Of a stretch of DNA of 24,203 nucleotides, positions 50-5,985 are shown in pieces. Numbering within the stretch: the first letter of the stretch is position 1; each line of letters begins with the position of its first letter. Source of the stretch: an uncultured Clostridia bacterium (GTDB taxonomy: Bacteria; Bacillota; Clostridia; Oscillospirales; CAG-272); contig CAMPBZ010000001.1 in assembly GCA_946641795.1 (NCBI GenBank), forward strand, positions 1 to 24,203, in the 5' to 3' direction. Under the pieces are notes generated by a model. The model was not told the origin of the DNA and did no database searches. It worked only from the letters and a program-made list of their open reading frames with translations. The translations under genes and the position numbers were made by a program.

Positions 50-192
50 CCGGGGGCTGAAAAGAGGGCCAGGCGAAGGGGACGGCGTGCGAGATGCGGT
101 CGAACGCAAGGCAGCAGGCAGGCGCCGAGGCGAGAAGCAGAGGGCGCGAGGCGGCTGGCGCGAGAAGCCTTTTGACCGGCAAAACAAAATAT

Positions 193-262
<70 letters not shown>

Positions 263-269
<7 letters not shown>

Positions 270-996: not shown

Positions 997-1022
997 GGGC
1001 ACCGCAACAGGATCGTGTGGTT
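997..1022 (+). repeat. Truncated tRNA-Met 3' fragment, left junction of the toxin cassette
   Basis: GGGCACCGCAACAGGATCGTGTGGTT is the same as 476-501 and stops abruptly in the T-loop. Confidence 0.9.
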
Positions 1023-1347
1023 ATTCTATGACGGTCACCGACGAATCCTCATTGACAATTTCAATTTGAATATCCTTTGCGAACATATCATCAGGATAGT
1101 GCTTAAACCTTTGCAAAATCTCAATCATTTTATCTGCGGCATCGTCAAATTTATCTCTAATGATTTCAAGTCCTATAATTGTAATGCGCATGGGGGTCCC
1201 ATACAGATCGGTCAAGCAATCCCAAAAAGCGGACCAGTTACAGCCATAATAATCCGGAAATTCAAGAGATTCTCGGATGACAAAATGCATTTCTAAATAA
1301 TATTTCACATTGTGGAAATCAATGGTATATTCTTTTCTTTTTTCCAT
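1021..1347 (-). CDS. Barstar-family RNase inhibitor (immunity protein), 108 aa
   Basis: FPDYYGCNWSAFWDCLTD aligns with barstar LPEYYGENLDALWDCLTG. SD GAGGAGG overlaps the upstream stop codon; ATG at 1347. Confidence 0.93.
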   Translation of the reverse strand: MEKRKEYTIDFHNVKYYLEMHFVIRESLEFPDYYGCNWSAFWDCLTDLYGTPMRITIIGLEIIRDKFDDAADKMIEILQRFKHYPDDMFAKDIQIEIVNEDSSVTVIE

Positions 1348-1357
1348 GTGGCCCTCC

Positions 1358-1930
1358 TCACTTTGTAATTTCATAAAATGTTTGGTAATGGTCGTATGTA
1401 ACAAAAATCAAACCGTCACTTGAATAAAGGATCCTTTGCCGATTTCGCTTTCCACCTGTGTAATTGATGTCGGCTTCATACCATATTCGCCCCGGCATAA
1501 ATGGGAGTTTCTGATCATCGTTTGTATAAATATCTCCGCCGATCATTTTGCCGGGCAAAACCTTATCTAATTTTTTGTGATTCGGTTTCCAGCCTTCAGA
1601 GTAGGCCTCTTTTTTGCTTACATAATAATTCGGTAACCGATTTAAATAATAGAGCTGGGCGTCTGCGCCGTTATATCCCATGTTGGTTGCACTTCCCGCA
1701 AGTTTTGTTCTCATCGGCACATAAATGCACTTACAATTCTCATGTGCGTTGACCTGGTCATTGTTTTCCAAAACAGAGATGTCGACGATCGTTCCGTGAT
1801 GGTCAACACAATATTTGCAGGTAGTGATGGTGAGTTGCGACTTCCAGTTTGCCCATTTGGAACTGTTACCCGCTAAATTCCTATCTTGTAAAAGATCGTT
1901 GATAAAAGTATCAACAAAATTTTCTTCCAT
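1358..1930 (-). CDS. Barnase-family ribonuclease toxin with an N-terminal MuF-like (phage head morphogenesis) Cys/His motif, 190 aa
   Basis: C-terminus IGGDIYTN..KLP..GRIWYEADINYTGGKRNRQRILYSSDGLIFVTYDHYQTF matches barnase, including catalytic E and H. N-terminus has TCKYC..HG..HENCKC. SD AAAGGAG; ATG at 1930. Confidence 0.92.
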   Translation of the reverse strand: MEENFVDTFINDLLQDRNLAGNSSKWANWKSQLTITTCKYCVDHHGTIVDISVLENNDQVNAHENCKCIYVPMRTKLAGSATNMGYNGADAQLYYLNRLPNYYVSKKEAYSEGWKPNHKKLDKVLPGKMIGGDIYTNDDQKLPFMPGRIWYEADINYTGGKRNRQRILYSSDGLIFVTYDHYQTFYEITK

Positions 1931-1943
1931 GTTTTCTCCTTTC

Positions 1944-1971
1944 ATTATATCATTTTTTTATTGCGTGTCAA
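1944..1971 (-). promoter_or_regulatory. Sigma-A promoter of the toxin-immunity cassette
   Basis: TTGACA (1971-1966), 16-nt spacer, TGaTATAAT (-10 at 1949-1944). Confidence 0.7.
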
Positions 1972-2577: not shown

Positions 2578-3570
2578 TTACTCCTTGTTATAAACGCTGC
2601 GGTACTTTTTGAGCGCGTAGTGGTAGTAGTTGCGCATAAAGATCCCCAGCCGTTTCGGGGAGAGGATAAGCGCGCTGTCGCCAAAGCGCTCAAAGTAGTA
2701 AAGCACCTGCTGGGCGGAGCATTCAAAGGTGTAAATGTCCTCTTCTATTTTTGTGGGTGTGGGACGGTATAGATAAATCTTTTCAAACAGAGCCTTTCCC
2801 TTTTCGGTCAATTGAACGCGAATGGGAACGTTGTCGGTTGCGTAAAGGGGATATTGCGCGCCGCAGGCGATCTGCCTTTCAAAAAGGTTGCGGCTTTCGG
2901 CCGGGAGTTCGGCTTTGTCGGGCAGCAGCGAGGCGGACTTGATTTTTGCCAGCCGCACCGTTGCGTTCCTGCTTCCGTCATAGAGCAAAACGTAGTTGAA
3001 AAGCTCGTCCTTGGAGGGCGCTACGGCATAAATTGAGCAATTGGAAACGACCTTTCCGTTCTCCAAAAAGAGGCAGACCTGCACGCCTTTGGCCACGGCG
3101 CGCGAAAGCAGCTCGTAGTTTTGCCGGAACAAAATTTTTTCCCGCTCGTTTTTGCTTTTCTTTGCGTAGGAAAGGAACAGGCGGCGGTAAAAAGCGGAAA
3201 GCGCCTCGCCCGAAAGCAGGACGTGCTCAATAAAATCGGTAACGTGCTCGGACTGTTTTGTGGGTTTGAAGGAAAGCGAAACGCCCTTGTGGCCGTACTG
3301 CTGTTTTTCCCGTCTGGCAAGCACCTGCAAAACGCCTTCCAAAGCCTCGCCGCGGTATTTTTCCGGCACCCGGAAAAGCGCCTTTTTCATTTCGTCGTGC
3401 AGTTCTTCCTCGCTCGCCGAAAACGCCTCGTAATCATTTACGATCAGCGTATTCAAAAAATCGTTGAGGTTTGGCGAGCGGTCTTTTTTGAAAAAGCGGA
3501 AATCGACGCAGTCTTTGCGCAGCAATTCCAGCGTTTCCTGCGGCAGTGTAAGTTTGATCTTTTCGGTCAT
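2578..3570 (-). CDS. WYL-domain protein of the WYL1 type (Cas13d accessory family) with an RHH-like N-terminus and WCX-like C-terminus, 330 aa
   Basis: EREKILF, FNYVL, VRLAKI, VQLTEKG..LFEKIYLYRP and QVLYYFERFG..ILSP parallel RspWYL1 motifs as I recall them. SD GGAGGTG; ATG at 3570. Confidence 0.8.
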   Translation of the reverse strand: MTEKIKLTLPQETLELLRKDCVDFRFFKKDRSPNLNDFLNTLIVNDYEAFSASEEELHDEMKKALFRVPEKYRGEALEGVLQVLARREKQQYGHKGVSLSFKPTKQSEHVTDFIEHVLLSGEALSAFYRRLFLSYAKKSKNEREKILFRQNYELLSRAVAKGVQVCLFLENGKVVSNCSIYAVAPSKDELFNYVLLYDGSRNATVRLAKIKSASLLPDKAELPAESRNLFERQIACGAQYPLYATDNVPIRVQLTEKGKALFEKIYLYRPTPTKIEEDIYTFECSAQQVLYYFERFGDSALILSPKRLGIFMRNYYHYALKKYRSVYNKE

Positions 3571-3592
3571 TCCAATCACCTCCTCTGAAATA

Positions 3593-3621
3593 ATTGTACC
3601 CAAAAAGGGGGCATTTGTCAA
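3593..3621 (-). promoter_or_regulatory. Sigma-A promoter of the WYL gene
   Basis: TTGACA-17-TACAAT on the minus strand. Confidence 0.75.
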
Positions 3622-3690
3622 TAGGAAAATGCGTATTTTCGCCTGTGTACTTGTTTTTTCGGTGGTCAAAAAATTCCGGAATACTGCCAG

Positions 3691-3719
3691 TTGTATTTTG
3701 TCGCTTTTTGGCATATAAT
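3691..3719 (+). promoter_or_regulatory. Sigma-A promoter of the DUF6847-like gene
   Basis: TTGTAT-17-TATAAT, with palindrome ATTCCGGAAT at 3673-3682 just upstream. Confidence 0.7.
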
Positions 3720-3752
3720 GGGGGCAAGAACAAAAACACGGAGGTGAAAAAT

Positions 3753-4238
3753 ATGAAAGTTTGTCACATGGAAGCAATGAAAGAAATCCGATTGCTGGAA
3801 GAGCAAAAGCAAATGGTGCTGGAAAAAGAGGAGGAAGGGTTCCGCGTATCCTATAAGGAAGGTGAAAGCAAAGTGGACACCGGCTACTCCTACCGGGAGA
3901 CCCGCGATCAGGTTGCCGCCCTGGACGCGCGCATCCGGCAGATCAAAAGCGCGCTGGCCAAGGCAAACTGCCTTTGCCGGTTGGAGGAATTTGACGTTAC
4001 CATTGGCGAAGCGCTCGTTTTGCTGGCGCAATGGAACGCCGAATACGCGCGGCTTTGCCGGCTTTCCTCCCAGCGGCAACTCTCCCGCCGCATTACCGCC
4101 AACGGCATACTGGAATACACGGAATGCTTATACGACGTGAAAGCGGTGGCCGAGGAGCGCAACTTGCTGAAACAACGCATCGGCGCGCTGCAAATTGCGA
4201 TTGACCGCGCCAATCTGCTTTCGCAAATCGAAATTTAA
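3753..4238 (+). CDS. Coiled-coil protein, DUF6847/DIP1984-like, 161 aa
   Basis: SD GGAGGTG. Helical pattern with SYKEGE, RIRQIKSALAKAN, TIGEAL, YDVK and a terminal LQIAIDRAN..IEI typical of this family (from memory). Confidence 0.6.
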   Translation: MKVCHMEAMKEIRLLEEQKQMVLEKEEEGFRVSYKEGESKVDTGYSYRETRDQVAALDARIRQIKSALAKANCLCRLEEFDVTIGEALVLLAQWNAEYARLCRLSSQRQLSRRITANGILEYTECLYDVKAVAEERNLLKQRIGALQIAIDRANLLSQIEI

Positions 4239-4475
4239 CGCATTTCCCAACCGCCCTTAACAGGCTGAACCCTTTTGGGTTTTGGCACCTCCTAAGGTAT
4301 AACTGATATTTTTGAATTGTTATCGTTGTGTTTTACAGTACGGGTCAAGGCTTATGGGTTGTGTTCTTGTAGTTGTTGGTTTATGGTTCAAGGGCTATGT
4401 CAAAAAACGACAAGATAAAATGCGGGTACGCATTTTTCATTGAGAAACGGGCGGTCAAAAGCTTTTGGTGGGGGA
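4239..4475 (+). ncRNA. Candidate structured 3' RNA with a G/U-rich 7-nt periodic tract
   Basis: ACCGCCC near the 5' end can pair with GGGCGGT near the 3' end. Small hairpins at 4268-4281 and 4417-4436; heptamer-phased tract at 4312-4395; no credible ORF. Confidence 0.45.
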
Positions 4476-4620
4476 AGCATGGGTCATATCCCATTTCCCG
4501 GTTCCCGCACCCCGCAGCAATCAAACGCACGCGACGGGATCAAATGAACGCGGCGCGGCGGCAAAGCGGGGCTGCAAAGGCGTTCAGCCGGGATCGACAA
4601 AACGAAAGGAAAAAACAAGA

Positions 4621-5985
4621 ATGAGCGAGTTAAACAGAATTGCCGGCTATGAAGCCGAAAAGCGGGAATTGCAAACATTGATTGAGATTTTTAACAATCG
4701 GGAAAAGTATCGCGAAAAAGGAGCAAGTTTACCAAAAGGAATTATATTTTACGGTAAATCCGGCACAGGAAAAACACTGTTTGCACAGGTGCTTGCCGCA
4801 GAGTGTACGCTGAAAGTGATTAAAGTGGATCTCCCGACAGCCGGCGAGCAGGATGTTTGTCGGTTGATCCGCAAGGCGTTCATCAAAGGCGCACGTTCAC
4901 GCAAGCCCACAATGATCTTTTTGGATGAGTTGGACAAACTTCTCCCAAATCAGCGCGAAGAATATTGCACCGATCAATCCAAGGCGGTGTTGACGCAACT
5001 GCTCACATTGATTGACGGGATGCACACCGTAGATGACATTGTATTTGTAGCGACCTGCAACGATTATGACGATCTACCGGAAAGTCTGACGCGTGCCGGC
5101 CGGTTTGACAAAAAAATTGCCCTGGGTCTTCCCTCTTTTTCTTCTCGTACGGCGATCCTGCGGCTCTATGCAAACGCATCCTCCTGTCAATTTGCGCTTG
5201 CCGCCGAAAACATTGCAAAACTTTGCACCGGCTTTTCCTGTGCGGCTTTGAAAACGCTGATCAACGAATGCGTGTTGCGTTCAGACGAGCACAATTTCAT
5301 CAGCGAAGAGTTAATTCGGGAAAAGGTGGCGGAAATTACCGACGAAGATCTTGTTTGCAAAAAGAGCGACGCAAGCAAAAGCGTGCAGGCAGCCCGCAAC
5401 ATTGGCTCCTTTCTCGTCTCTCGCGAATACAGCAAGAGCGATTACTTGCTCTCGCTGAACGAAAACACCGTTTGCAACGTCTTTCTTGACAGCGTAATTA
5501 CGGGCATTAATGACGAATATGACGATTATGATGACGACGAATACGATGATTATGATGTTGACGATGACGACAAGAAAGACGAAAAGACGAACGACCTGCC
5601 GATTTCCAAAAACGATTATCTTGCCGCCATCACGGCGCTGTTGGGCGGATATGCCGCAGAGGAGCTGTTGTTTCACAAAACGTACAACACACTTGATCAC
5701 TCTATGCGTAGCATCAAATACATCTTCTGCGAAATGGAAGAATGCGGTATGCTGGGGTGGCGGATGACATTCAAGTGCGACCATTCCGATTGTTCTTCTG
5801 ACCTCATGGAGCGCGAAGAGGCGCTTTTTGAGCAAATCGTTACCGAATGTTACGAAGCGGCAAAAGCAACGGTTACGAAGAACGAGCGGCTGATCAAAGA
5901 ATTAATCCCCGTTCTGATCCGGCGTGAAAGCATTGAAAAAGAGGAATGCGAGCAGATCCTTGCCGGACTTGGTGGCGTTGACTGA
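4621..5985 (+). CDS. Soluble FtsH-like AAA+ ATPase with a degenerate M41-like domain, 454 aa
   Basis: Walker A GKSGTGKT, Walker B IFLDE, SRH ATCN..RAGRFD, and M41-like ALLGGYAAEEL. No TM segment and no HEXXH motif. Confidence 0.85.
   Translation: MSELNRIAGYEAEKRELQTLIEIFNNREKYREKGASLPKGIIFYGKSGTGKTLFAQVLAAECTLKVIKVDLPTAGEQDVCRLIRKAFIKGARSRKPTMIFLDELDKLLPNQREEYCTDQSKAVLTQLLTLIDGMHTVDDIVFVATCNDYDDLPESLTRAGRFDKKIALGLPSFSSRTAILRLYANASSCQFALAAENIAKLCTGFSCAALKTLINECVLRSDEHNFISEELIREKVAEITDEDLVCKKSDASKSVQAARNIGSFLVSREYSKSDYLLSLNENTVCNVFLDSVITGINDEYDDYDDDEYDDYDVDDDDKKDEKTNDLPISKNDYLAAITALLGGYAAEELLFHKTYNTLDHSMRSIKYIFCEMEECGMLGWRMTFKCDHSDCSSDLMEREEALFEQIVTECYEAAKATVTKNERLIKELIPVLIRRESIEKEECEQILAGLGGVD
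5509..5580 (+). repeat. Low-complexity Asp/Tyr-rich coding repeat
   Basis: Encodes NDEYDDYDDDEYDDYDVDDDDKKD. Confidence 0.85.

What the first reader, a model, noticed from the sequence alone, without database searches (positions are those of the whole stretch)
4239..4475. Structured 3' non-coding tract with heptamer periodicity behind the DUF6847-like gene
Seen: from 4312 the sequence parses into 7-mers TTGAATT GTTATCG TTGTGTT TTACAGT ACGGGTC AAGGCTT ATGGGTT GTGTTCT TGTAGTT GTTGGTT TATGGTT CAAGGGC. Five of the 12 end in GTT and two more in TT, and the strand is G/T-rich and C-poor. It is enclosed by potential long-range pairing (ACCGCCC / GGGCGGT) and small hairpins. Inference: an unpaired RNA with one protein-binding register per 7 nt, onto which the coiled-coil protein could polymerise. 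I recall similar T-rich phased tracts after other DUF6847/DIP1984 genes but cannot verify this here.
Basis: partly seen in the sequence, partly recalled or inferred. Interest (0 to 1): 0.75.

Follow-up and report, generated by a model that had tools for sequence, protein, structure and literature searches.

The report
New folded RNA partnering DIP1984-like gene
The flagged stretch is a real, conserved, roughly 255-base folded RNA in no RNA catalogue; it carries a row of GUU units spaced about 7 bases apart and always sits directly behind one small protein gene of unknown function, so the two probably form an undescribed protein-RNA particle.

Summary
Window 4243-4495 (+) is a structured RNA that starts 5 nt after the stop codon of a 161-aa gene with a DIP1984 fold (DUF6847-like).

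A 3' hairpin and two pseudoknots also show compensatory changes.

The 7-nt period is only nominal in this window (P about 0.005-0.05, chosen after the fact). It is strong across 44 homologs (lag 7, z 9.8) and in 23 further RNAs found through their 3' motif alone (lag 6-7, z about 8).

All 62 protein-first loci carry the RNA. All 39 genuine RNA-first hits follow a DIP1984-like gene.

Contigs from four metatranscriptome libraries lie on the element. Rfam has no match. The small ORF in the tract is not conserved.

Frequent neighbours are a divergent WYL-WCX regulator gene and RtcB. That layout parallels rtcR / rsr-Y RNA-rtcB.

Direct binding, polymerisation and an unpaired state of the heptads are untested. 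The protein model gives a symmetric dimer.

This scan has already noted the same gene-plus-RNA module on other DNA several times. Most likely this is the RNA subunit of a new RNP, with the GUU array as its multi-site platform.

The parts
3753..4238 (+). 161-aa gene of the DIP1984 fold (DUF6847-like), with GGAGGTG 6 nt before the ATG. It is the constant upstream partner of the RNA.
   Evidence: ORF and sequence. More than 248 homologs, nearly all of 161 aa. AF2 model pLDDT 93.7. Foldseek top hit 3KDQ, E 4e-5, TM 0.65. DUF6847 is hit in 10 of 25 homologs but not in this protein itself.
4243..4248 (+). 5' tail UUUCCC. CCC 4246-4248 pairs with GGG 4481-4483 in the loop of the 3' hairpin (pseudoknot PK2). 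UUU may pair with AAA of 4457-4460; this is inferred and the bases are invariant.
   Evidence: Pair types across homologs: CCC/GGG 25, CUG/CAG 4, CCG/CGG 3, CCU/AGG 2. 83% are fully complementary against 52% in permutations, with 0 of 5000 permutations reaching the observed value. Further CCG/CGG cases were read by eye.
4250..4256 (+). P1, 5' strand (ACCGCCC). It pairs with 4449-4455.
   Evidence: Cognate against non-cognate duplex energy is -12.6 against -5.6 kcal/mol over 44 distinct RNAs, p 7e-17. The helix sequences differ widely.
4257..4288 (+). Junction module: UUAACAGGCU (4257-4266), capped hairpin GAACCC-UUUU-GGGUUU (4267-4282), then U-GGCAC (4283-4288). In most relatives AACAGGCU lies just before the 3' strand of P1 instead. 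The window, L003 and L004 are therefore locally permuted.
   Evidence: Alignments and sequences. This is a reading by eye and was not tested statistically.
4316..4392 (+). GUU array of eleven 7-nt units. GUU or GUC starts the units at 4330, 4344, 4358, 4372, 4379 and 4386.
   Evidence: for the window. Family periodicity. RNAalifold finds no consensus helix here. A short hairpin with loop GGUUUAUU is seen in many relatives, with partial covariation.
4420..4433 (+). Small hairpin AUGCG-GGUA-CGCAU in the variable region before the 3' strand of P1.
   Evidence: Sequence and MFE fold. It is not conserved in position across relatives.
4449..4455 (+). P1, 3' strand (GGGCGGU).
4456..4464 (+). Conserved motif CAAAAGCUU (GAAAACUU in most relatives). 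GCUU 4461-4464 pairs with AAGC 4475-4478 in the loop of the 3' hairpin (pseudoknot PK1).
   Evidence: Four pair types across relatives: ACUU/AAGU in most; GCUU/AAGC in the window, L003, L004, L007 and L008; AACC/GGUU in the L033 group; ACAU/AUGU in L047, L052 and L054.
4467..4495 (+). P3 hairpin: stem 4467-4472 / 4490-4495 and conserved loop 4473-4489 (GG-AAGC-AU-GGG-UCAUA-U). The last pentamer is T-loop-like (UUAUA, UUUCA or UUCGA in relatives). Most relatives have a U-run after P3; the window does not.
   Evidence: RNAalifold finds 5 pairs, each with compensatory changes. Cognate against non-cognate energy is -8.9 against -4.5 kcal/mol, p 8e-16. Loop variants.
2578..3573 (-). Divergent WYL-WCX regulator-like gene. 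It is a frequent partner of the module.
   Evidence: PADLOC WYL E 2e-5. Among 16 homologs, WCX is hit in 13 and WYL in 6. It is present divergently upstream in 23 of 58 loci.
4621..5985 (+). Downstream AAA+ ATPase with a C-terminal remnant of peptidase M41, no HEXXH motif and an acidic linker. It stands where RtcB stands in many relatives.
   Evidence: Pfam AAA 1.4e-26 and M41 7e-9, covering profile positions 54-191 only. Translation. Homologs lie downstream of the RNA in L003, L004 and L089.

Best explanation
Window 4243-4495 (+) encodes a non-coding RNA of about 255 nt from an uncatalogued family.

Shown:
- It begins 5 nt after the stop codon of the 161-aa DIP1984-fold gene and lies on the same strand.
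- Stem P1 closes it.
- Its 5' tail, the motif (G/C)AAAA(C/G)UU and the loop of the terminal hairpin P3 interlock through two pseudoknots.
- In its interior it displays about ten GUU-led units spaced 6-7 nt apart.

Inferred:
- The RNA is made from the same transcript as the protein gene and then trimmed. There is no room for a promoter between the stop codon and the 5' tail.
- It acts as the RNA subunit of a particle with the DIP1984-like protein.
- The GUU array is a multi-site platform with one site per unit for protomers or dimers.
- The pseudoknotted end module locks and protects the RNA ends.

Inferred from gene order:
- In many relatives the module heads an RtcB operon under a divergent WYL-WCX regulator.
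- The particle would then work in the response to RNA damage, in the place that Ro60 and Y RNA hold in rtcR / rsr-yrlBA-rtcBA.
For: Conservation and structure:
- The same motifs sit in the same place behind the gene in all 62 protein-first loci: 50 by pattern and 13 by eye.
- They are also present behind a homolog only 26% identical.
- P1 and P3 covary.
- PK2 shows four pair types, and 0 of 5000 permutations reach the observed value.
- PK1 shows four pair types.
- G-U pairs and the U-runs after P3 fit the + strand.

Periodicity:
- Family-wide lag 7 has z 9.8.
- In 23 RNAs picked by 3' motif alone, lags 6 and 7 have z about 8.

Linkage:
- The RNA-first pattern scan of 185,579 genomes gave 50 hits.
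- 37 of them have a DIP1984-like ORF within 900 nt upstream.
- 2 are cut short, but lie on contigs already known to carry the gene.
- The other 11 lack P3 and lie in unrelated sequence.
- Downstream genes vary (RtcB, AAA+, MarR, two-component systems, YqeY), while the upstream gene is constant.

Presence in RNA libraries: contigs of four metatranscriptome libraries from four studies, at least 99% identical, lie on 4255-4437, 4255-4437, 4293-4454 and 4326-4538.

Not coding:
- There is no lag-3 signal.
- The tract is read in different frames with stops in relatives.
- The window's ATG at 4354 is ATC in L003 and L004.

Not catalogued: Rfam gives nothing in the window or in nine relatives.

Protein self-association:
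- The four-copy model scores 0.71 against a best control of 0.01.
- That mark was reached by 20 of 30 proteins solved as pairs of one chain and by 1 of 23 solved as single chains.
- The runs agree in at least 95% of contacts, and the partner's pLDDT is at least 86.
- The interface is a symmetric dimer that holds 18 of the 36 invariant residues.
- Because 3KDQ is a solved multi-chain relative, the pass may come from likeness to that structure.

Operon parallel:
- The WYL-WCX gene lies divergently upstream in 23 of 58 loci, RtcB lies downstream in 13 of 54, and both occur in 12.
- The Salmonella operon with divergent rtcR, Ro60 and Y RNAs is described in PMC7790460.
Against:
- The protein is near neutral (pI 6.0, net charge -1), and no RNA-binding family matches it.
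- The oligomer model is a closed symmetric dimer, not a filament.
- Folding energies do not mark the array as unpaired, and part of it forms a short hairpin in many relatives.
- This genome (71% complete) shows no RtcB and no Ro60, so the link to RNA repair does not hold for every carrier.
- Contigs cannot show strand, RNA ends or abundance, and DNA carry-over in RNA libraries cannot be excluded.
- Homologs share ancestry, so the statistics overstate independence.
Confidence: 0.5

Rival explanations
1. The RNA works without the neighbouring protein as its main partner. It could be a decoy, sensor or substrate in RNA-damage conflicts: for example the GUU array mimicking the targets of a ribonuclease, or the RNA being cut and resealed (even circularised) by RtcB. 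In this reading the DIP1984-like gene is only co-regulated with it.
For: RtcB is the next gene in 13 of 54 loci, and the regulator is of a ligand-sensing type, WYL-WCX. PMC7790460 raises a nuclease-inhibitor role for the tRNA-like YrlA RNA.
Against: The RNA stays with the DIP1984-like gene in every locus, while RtcB is present in a minority and was not found in this genome. No joint was seen in the four contig sets, which is weak evidence because contigs rarely show joints. The bases before GUU are mostly G, not the pyrimidine expected for an anticodon-loop mimic (sequence; my own knowledge of colicin E5 specificity).
Confidence: 0.2
2. It is a cis-acting part of the mRNA. It could be a structured 3' UTR that stabilises or terminates the DIP1984-like transcript, or a leader or attenuator that controls read-through into the downstream genes, with no function in trans.
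For: It starts 5 nt after the stop codon. It ends in a hairpin plus U-run in most relatives. A ribosome-binding site and the next gene often follow directly. One RNA-library contig runs 43 nt past P3 in the window lineage, which lacks the U-run.
Against: About 250 nt with two covarying pseudoknots, a conserved T-loop-like loop and a phased array is far more than a terminator needs. The downstream genes differ or even point the other way, so it is not a leader of one regulated gene. Rfam finds no riboswitch or T-box likeness.
Confidence: 0.2
3. The G/T-rich tract encodes a small hydrophobic peptide (ORF 4312/4354-4443, 29-43 aa), such as a type I toxin or a membrane peptide.
For: The open frame has a hydrophobic N-terminus and a basic C-terminus.
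Against: It is not conserved. In L003 and L004 the ATG is ATC and a stop follows after 12 codons. Relatives read the same conserved bases in other frames. There is no lag-3 signal, and AAGG lies only 3 nt before the ATG.
Confidence: 0.02
4. The heptamer pattern is a chance effect of G/T-rich composition in an ordinary intergenic spacer.
For: In the window alone the signal is weak (z 1.8). Tandem Repeats Finder reports no array there.
Against: The family-wide signal appears in two separately gathered sets, and the flanking helices and pseudoknots covary.
Confidence: 0.01

Closest known systems
Ro60 (Rsr) with bacterial Y RNAs (YrlA/YrlB) in the Salmonella rsr-yrlBA-rtcBA operon under the divergent regulator RtcR (PMC7790460; Chen et al. 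2014, PMC4201824, cited there)
   Same: A protein gene is followed by a structured non-coding RNA at the head of an RtcB operon, with a divergently transcribed regulator that carries a ligand-sensing domain (CARF there, WYL-WCX here). The RNA is closed by a long-range stem and carries a T-loop-like element.
   Different: No TROVE/Ro60 gene was found in this genome. No Rfam Y-RNA match was found. The protein is a small helical DIP1984-fold protein, not a HEAT-repeat ring. The RNA has a GUU array and two end pseudoknots in place of a Ro-binding helix plus tRNA-like domain. RtcB is present in only about a quarter of loci.
Phased triplet arrays bound by oligomeric RNA-binding proteins: TRAP (11 G/UAG triplets, 2-3 nt spacers) and HutP (UAG triplets with 4-nt spacers, that is, period 7). 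This rests on my own knowledge and was not checked here.
   Same: Short conserved triplets repeat at a fixed spacing, with variable spacers. HutP sites share the 7-nt period.
   Different: The triplet here is GUU and about ten units stand in one row. The array sits inside a closed ncRNA behind the protein gene, not in a 5' leader that overlaps a terminator or antiterminator. The candidate protein is unrelated to TRAP or HutP. Binding has not been shown.
DIP1984 family / DUF6847 (PF20935; PDB 3KDQ, function unknown)
   Same: The fold of the 161-aa protein matches 3KDQ (TM 0.65, E 4e-5). Weak to moderate PF20935 hits occur in 10 of 25 homologs.
   Different: The window's protein itself does not reach any Pfam or NCBIfam threshold. 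No function is known for the family, and no paper in the searched library mentions DIP1984 or DUF6847 among the listed hits.
Large ornate bacterial ncRNAs with dedicated partner proteins (OLE with OapA/B/C) and other orphan structured RNAs (raiA, ROOL, GOLLD). This rests on my own knowledge.
   Same: It is a conserved, intricately folded ncRNA of unknown function with fixed gene linkage.
   Different: It has no sequence or structure match to any of them in Rfam. It is much smaller than OLE, ROOL or GOLLD, and none of those has a periodic array.

Membership tests
Bacterial Y RNA (YrlA/Yrn1) with Ro60 | Match to the Rfam Y-RNA covariance models | tested here: not met
   There is no hit at gathering score in the window. 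Nothing relevant appears at E up to 10 in 4100-4750. Nine related loci give none.
Bacterial Y RNA (YrlA/Yrn1) with Ro60 | A Ro60/TROVE gene in the same operon or genome | tested here: not met
   PF05731 was not found in the window's genome, which is 71% complete; the controls ring. No such gene appeared among the neighbour clusters of 62 loci.
Bacterial Y RNA (YrlA/Yrn1) with Ro60 | Position next to rtcB under a divergent regulator | tested here: inconclusive
   This is met in 12 to 13 related loci, with a WYL-WCX regulator instead of RtcR. It is not met in the window, where an AAA+ gene follows and no RtcB was found in the genome.
TRAP/HutP-type triplet arrays | Repeated conserved triplets at fixed spacing | tested here: met
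   GUU-led units recur at 6-7 nt: lag 7 z 9.8 in 44 RNAs and z about 8 in 23 others, and they are visible by eye.
TRAP/HutP-type triplet arrays | Location in a 5' leader that overlaps a terminator or antiterminator of the regulated operon, with a TRAP or HutP protein | tested here: not met
   The array lies inside a closed ncRNA behind the protein gene. The downstream genes vary. The neighbouring protein has the DIP1984 fold.
TRAP/HutP-type triplet arrays | Direct binding of an oligomeric protein to the triplets | not testable with these tools
   Only a homodimer model of the protein was obtained. No protein-RNA prediction or assay was available.
DIP1984 / DUF6847 (protein) | Match to PF20935 above threshold | tested here: inconclusive
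   The window's protein has no hit at E up to 10. 10 of 25 homologs are hit at E up to 1, best 1.9e-6.
DIP1984 / DUF6847 (protein) | Fold of 3KDQ (DIP1984) | tested here: met
   The AF2 model has pLDDT 93.7. Foldseek puts 3KDQ first with E 4e-5 and TMq 0.65 / TMt 0.67, and the next hit has E 0.6.
Riboswitch, T-box or attenuator leader | A fixed downstream regulated gene and an Rfam match | tested here: not met
   The downstream genes differ or are on the opposite strand. There are no Rfam matches.
Small ORF / type I toxin | An open frame conserved among relatives, with a coding signature | tested here: not met
   The start codon is lost and an early stop appears in the closest relatives. The frames differ among relatives. 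There is no lag-3 signal.

The most novel reading that the evidence does not exclude
The DIP1984-like protein and this RNA form a defined particle. In it, about ten GUU units each seat one protomer (or five dimers sit in register), and the double-pseudoknot end module shields the RNA termini. Such a particle would be a new class of RNA-damage-response RNP that stands in for Ro-Y RNA at the head of RtcB operons. It would give a first function to the widespread DIP1984/DUF6847 family. The RNA may also be processed or resealed by RtcB.
Probability: 0.3. Interest if true: 0.9.

Novelty: categorically new. Interest (0 to 1): 0.78.

Why it matters
DIP1984/DUF6847 proteins are widespread and have a solved structure, but no function is known for them. 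A strictly linked, intricately folded RNA gives the first concrete handle on them. It predicts a protein-RNA particle that can be tested by pull-down, footprinting and cryo-EM.

The phased GUU array would be a new example of periodic RNA recognition. The interlocked 5'-tail / 3'-loop pseudoknots would be a new end-closing RNA architecture.

The recurring layout of a WYL-WCX regulator, this module and RtcB mirrors rtcR / Ro60-Y RNA / RtcB. It suggests that bacteria have more than one RNP solution in RNA-damage responses. It also offers a Ro-independent system in gut Clostridia, Akkermansia and Bacteroidaceae in which to study it.

Tried and rejected
- **Rfam.** The gathering-score scan of the whole window, the permissive scan of 4100-4750 and the scan of nine related loci all gave nothing for the element.
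- **Promoter and terminator scan of 3400-5000.** It gave only chance-level sites. There was no terminator after P3 in the window and no promoter between the stop codon and the RNA.
- **Tandem Repeats Finder.** It does not report the heptads; they are too degenerate.
- **Small ORF.** Rejected.
- **RNAalifold on the full MAFFT alignment.** It recovered only P3, because P1 was misaligned. P1 was therefore tested by cognate against non-cognate duplex energies.
- **Is the array unpaired?** Pair probabilities showed no difference from the rest of the RNA or from the shuffled array (0.39, 0.38, 0.41), so the test was uninformative.
- **Reads.** No contig covered the ORFs at 3600-4254 or 4539-4800 in the four RNA libraries, and no joint was listed. 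By the tool's own rules, a part without cover and a missing joint are not evidence.
- **Shared contig ends.** Contigs of two runs share the ends 4255 and 4437, but one of them has a loose end and no DNA run was laid. This is not used.
- **Barnase/barstar next to the module.** Not found in any related locus.
- **Pattern scan of viral contigs.** One true module and two chance hits.
- **Literature.** No listed paper mentions DIP1984 or DUF6847. The supplement of PMC8040213, which lists thousands of unnamed candidate RNAs from human microbiomes, could not be matched to this RNA, so it may be among them.
- **Covariance model.** None was built. It would have needed a long typed structure string, and the pattern scans answered the linkage question.

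Full report
**What is there.**
- The 161-aa ORF 3753-4238 (+) has a GGAGGTG ribosome-binding site and ends in TAA at 4236-4238.
- The next long ORF is an AAA+ ATPase that starts at 4621.
- The 382-nt gap between them holds the finding.
- The window's protein matches no Pfam or NCBIfam family, even at loose thresholds.
- It has more than 248 homologs, nearly all exactly 161 aa. Ten of 25 of these weakly match DUF6847 (best E 1.9e-6).
- A confident AlphaFold model (pLDDT 93.7) has PDB 3KDQ, the DIP1984 protein of Corynebacterium diphtheriae, as its only significant structural match (E 4e-5, TM 0.65).

**The observation in the window.**
- The 7-mers, the G/T-rich and C-poor composition, and the ACCGCCC/GGGCGGT pair are all present.
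- On its own the period is weak. Lag 7 has z 1.8 in 4312-4395, and five of nine GTT triplets share one phase (P 0.005, for a tract chosen after the fact). A Rayleigh test on a wider stretch is not significant.

**Relatives decide it.**
- I fetched 62 loci that encode homologs of the protein. Nearly every one has an ORF-free gap of 200-440 nt behind the gene.
- Translated fragments of these gaps repeat the same 'peptides' in different frames. That points to conservation at the nucleotide level, not to coding.
- Alignments show four fixed blocks:
  - UUUUCCC 3-6 nt after the stop codon;
  - a G/U-rich core;
  - GAAAACUU;
  - a hairpin whose loop reads GGAAGUA-nn-GGGUUAUA, mostly followed by a U-run.
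- Fifty loci match these blocks by pattern. The other 13 carry recognisable variants.
- A homolog only 26% identical, from another family of the same order, has them too.

**Structure.**
- P1: the bases after UUUUCCC pair with the bases before GAAAACUU. The helix sequences differ widely. Cognate strands give -12.6 kcal/mol against -5.6 for non-cognate strands (p 7e-17).
- P3: cognate -8.9 against non-cognate -4.5 kcal/mol (p 8e-16). RNAalifold finds five pairs, all with compensatory changes.
- PK2: two tertiary pairings join the ends, and this is the first. The CCN of the 5' tail pairs with NGG just before the T-loop-like pentamer of the P3 loop. Pair types are CCC/GGG, CUG/CAG, CCG/CGG and CCU/AGG, and 0 of 5000 permutations reach the observed complementarity.
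- PK1: this is the second. The end of GAAAACUU pairs with AAGU in the same loop. Pair types are ACUU/AAGU, GCUU/AAGC (the window, L003, L004, L007, L008), AACC/GGUU and ACAU/AUGU.
- G-U pairs and the U-runs put the RNA on the + strand.
- Window coordinates: tail 4243-4248, P1 4250-4256 / 4449-4455, motif 4456-4464, P3 4467-4472 / 4490-4495, PK1 4461-4464 with 4475-4478, PK2 4246-4248 with 4481-4483.

**The heptads.**
- In the interior of 44 distinct RNAs, lag-7 identity is 0.340 against 0.288 in dinucleotide shuffles (z 9.8). Lags 13/14 and 20/21 are raised, and lag 3 is not.
- By eye the units read GUUnnnn, eight to eleven in a row, with occasional 6-nt steps. In the window they run 4316-4392.
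- A second set was gathered without reference to the array, using the pattern AAAACTT-N8-38-GAAGTANNGGGTTATA over 185,579 genomes. It yields 23 RNAs not seen before, including ones from Akkermansia and Bacteroidaceae. These show the same signal: lags 6 and 7 with z about 8, and lag 13 with z 6.
- Relatives are not independent, so this is a family trait rather than a probability.
- No consensus helix is predicted within the array. A short hairpin with loop GGUUUAUU recurs.
- Pair probabilities do not mark the array as unpaired. Whether it is single-stranded remains open.

**Linkage.**
- Protein-first, all 62 loci have the RNA.
- RNA-first, 37 of 50 pattern hits have a DIP1984-like ORF within 900 nt upstream on the same strand. 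Two more are cut short but lie on contigs known to carry the gene.
- The remaining 11 lack P3 and sit in unrelated coding sequence. That is about the number I estimated by hand for chance matches to 21 fixed bases, roughly eight.
- The downstream genes vary.
- The gene was found in none of 36 genomes of the same genus. The module is therefore accessory.
- It is single-copy in this genome.

**Expression.**
- Contigs of four metatranscriptome libraries from four studies, at least 99% identical, lie on 4255-4437 (two of them), 4293-4454 and 4326-4538.
- Contigs show presence in RNA libraries only. They do not show strand, RNA ends or abundance.

**Neighbours and analogy.**
- A WYL-WCX regulator-like gene lies divergently upstream in 23 of 58 loci, the window included. 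RtcB follows the RNA in 13 of 54 loci, and both occur in 12.
- This mirrors rtcR / rsr-yrlBA-rtcBA in Salmonella, where Ro60 and Y RNAs precede RtcB and the regulator senses damaged tRNA (PMC7790460).
- No Ro60 and no RtcB were found in this genome, which is 71% complete.
- In the window, L003 and L004, an AAA+ protein takes RtcB's place. It has a remnant of the M41 protease domain and no HEXXH motif. A relative of it follows the RNA in L089.

**The protein as an oligomer.**
- A four-copy model scores 0.71 against a best control of 0.01.
- The mark was reached by 20 of 30 proteins solved as pairs of one chain and by 1 of 23 solved as single chains.
- The runs agree in at least 95% of contacts, and the partner's pLDDT is at least 86.
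- The interface is a symmetric dimer that uses 18 of the 36 invariant residues.
- A solved relative (3KDQ) exists, so the pass may reflect likeness to it.
- This supports self-association, not a filament.

**Verdict.**
A structured, conserved RNA with a phased GUU array and strict linkage to the DIP1984-like gene is real.
- Binding, polymerisation and an unpaired state of the array are untested.
- The best reading is the RNA subunit of a new RNP. The main rivals are a protein-independent decoy or RtcB substrate, and a purely cis-acting UTR.
- No catalogue or paper that I could search describes it.
- Earlier notes of this scan describe the same kind of module on other DNA. My tests here were run independently of them.

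Noticed in passing
window 4257-4288, compared with L013, L016, L035 and L043: In the window, L003 and L004 the motif AACAGGCU sits right after the 5' strand of P1, followed by a capped hairpin and GGCAC. In most relatives AACAGGCU sits just before the 3' strand of P1, and the P1 extension plays the part of that hairpin. This looks like a local circular permutation of the junction, which argues for selection on the 3D architecture.
   Followed up: partly
window 1021-1404 (-) and 1358-1945 (-): A barstar-like gene (PF01337, E 8e-16) and a barnase-type ribonuclease gene (PF00545, E 9e-11) form an RNase/inhibitor pair two genes away from the RNA module. No related locus has this pair.
   Followed up: partly
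window 4621-5985 (+): An AAA+ ATPase resembling the FtsH ATPase domain. It has an acidic D/E/Y-rich linker and only the C-terminal part of peptidase M41, with no HEXXH motif. PADLOC and NCBIfam give weak likeness to the anti-phage ATPase IetA/IteA. It follows the RNA in the window, L003 and L004 (49% identity), and a 30%-identical relative does so in L089.
   Followed up: partly
window 2578-3573 (-): A WYL-WCX regulator-like gene divergent from the DIP1984-like gene. Relatives of it sit in the same position in 23 of 58 loci and in every RtcB-bearing locus that has upstream sequence.
   Followed up: yes
window 192-268 (+): A tRNA-Met (CAT) gene lies near the start of the window. The DIP1984-like gene was found in none of 36 genomes of the same genus, so the region may be an accessory island next to a tRNA gene.
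   Followed up: no
window 4553-4579 (+): A 13-nt unit GCGCGGCGGCAAA repeats 2.1 times in the leader of the AAA+ gene. GGGATCAAATGAACGCG just upstream of it is shared with L003 and L004.
   Followed up: no
L016, L017, L025 and L029, between GAAAACUU and P3: An inserted element, GUCGGGAAAUYGGAUCCCGGGGUUCACCGRCAA, sits at the optional-hairpin position and is duplicated in L017. L047, L052 and L054 instead carry an extra hairpin inside the P3 loop.
   Followed up: no
L108 (Akkermansia muciniphila isolate), L078 (Bacteroidaceae), L118 (IMG/VR contig): The same 3' RNA motif follows more distant DIP1984-like genes outside the Clostridia, and it occurs on one predicted viral contig.
   Followed up: partly
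L017, L018, L033, L036, L042 and L045, downstream of the RNA or of RtcB: A 270-340-aa protein family with no Pfam match (cluster 4 of my neighbour clustering) recurs downstream of the module in several loci.
   Followed up: no
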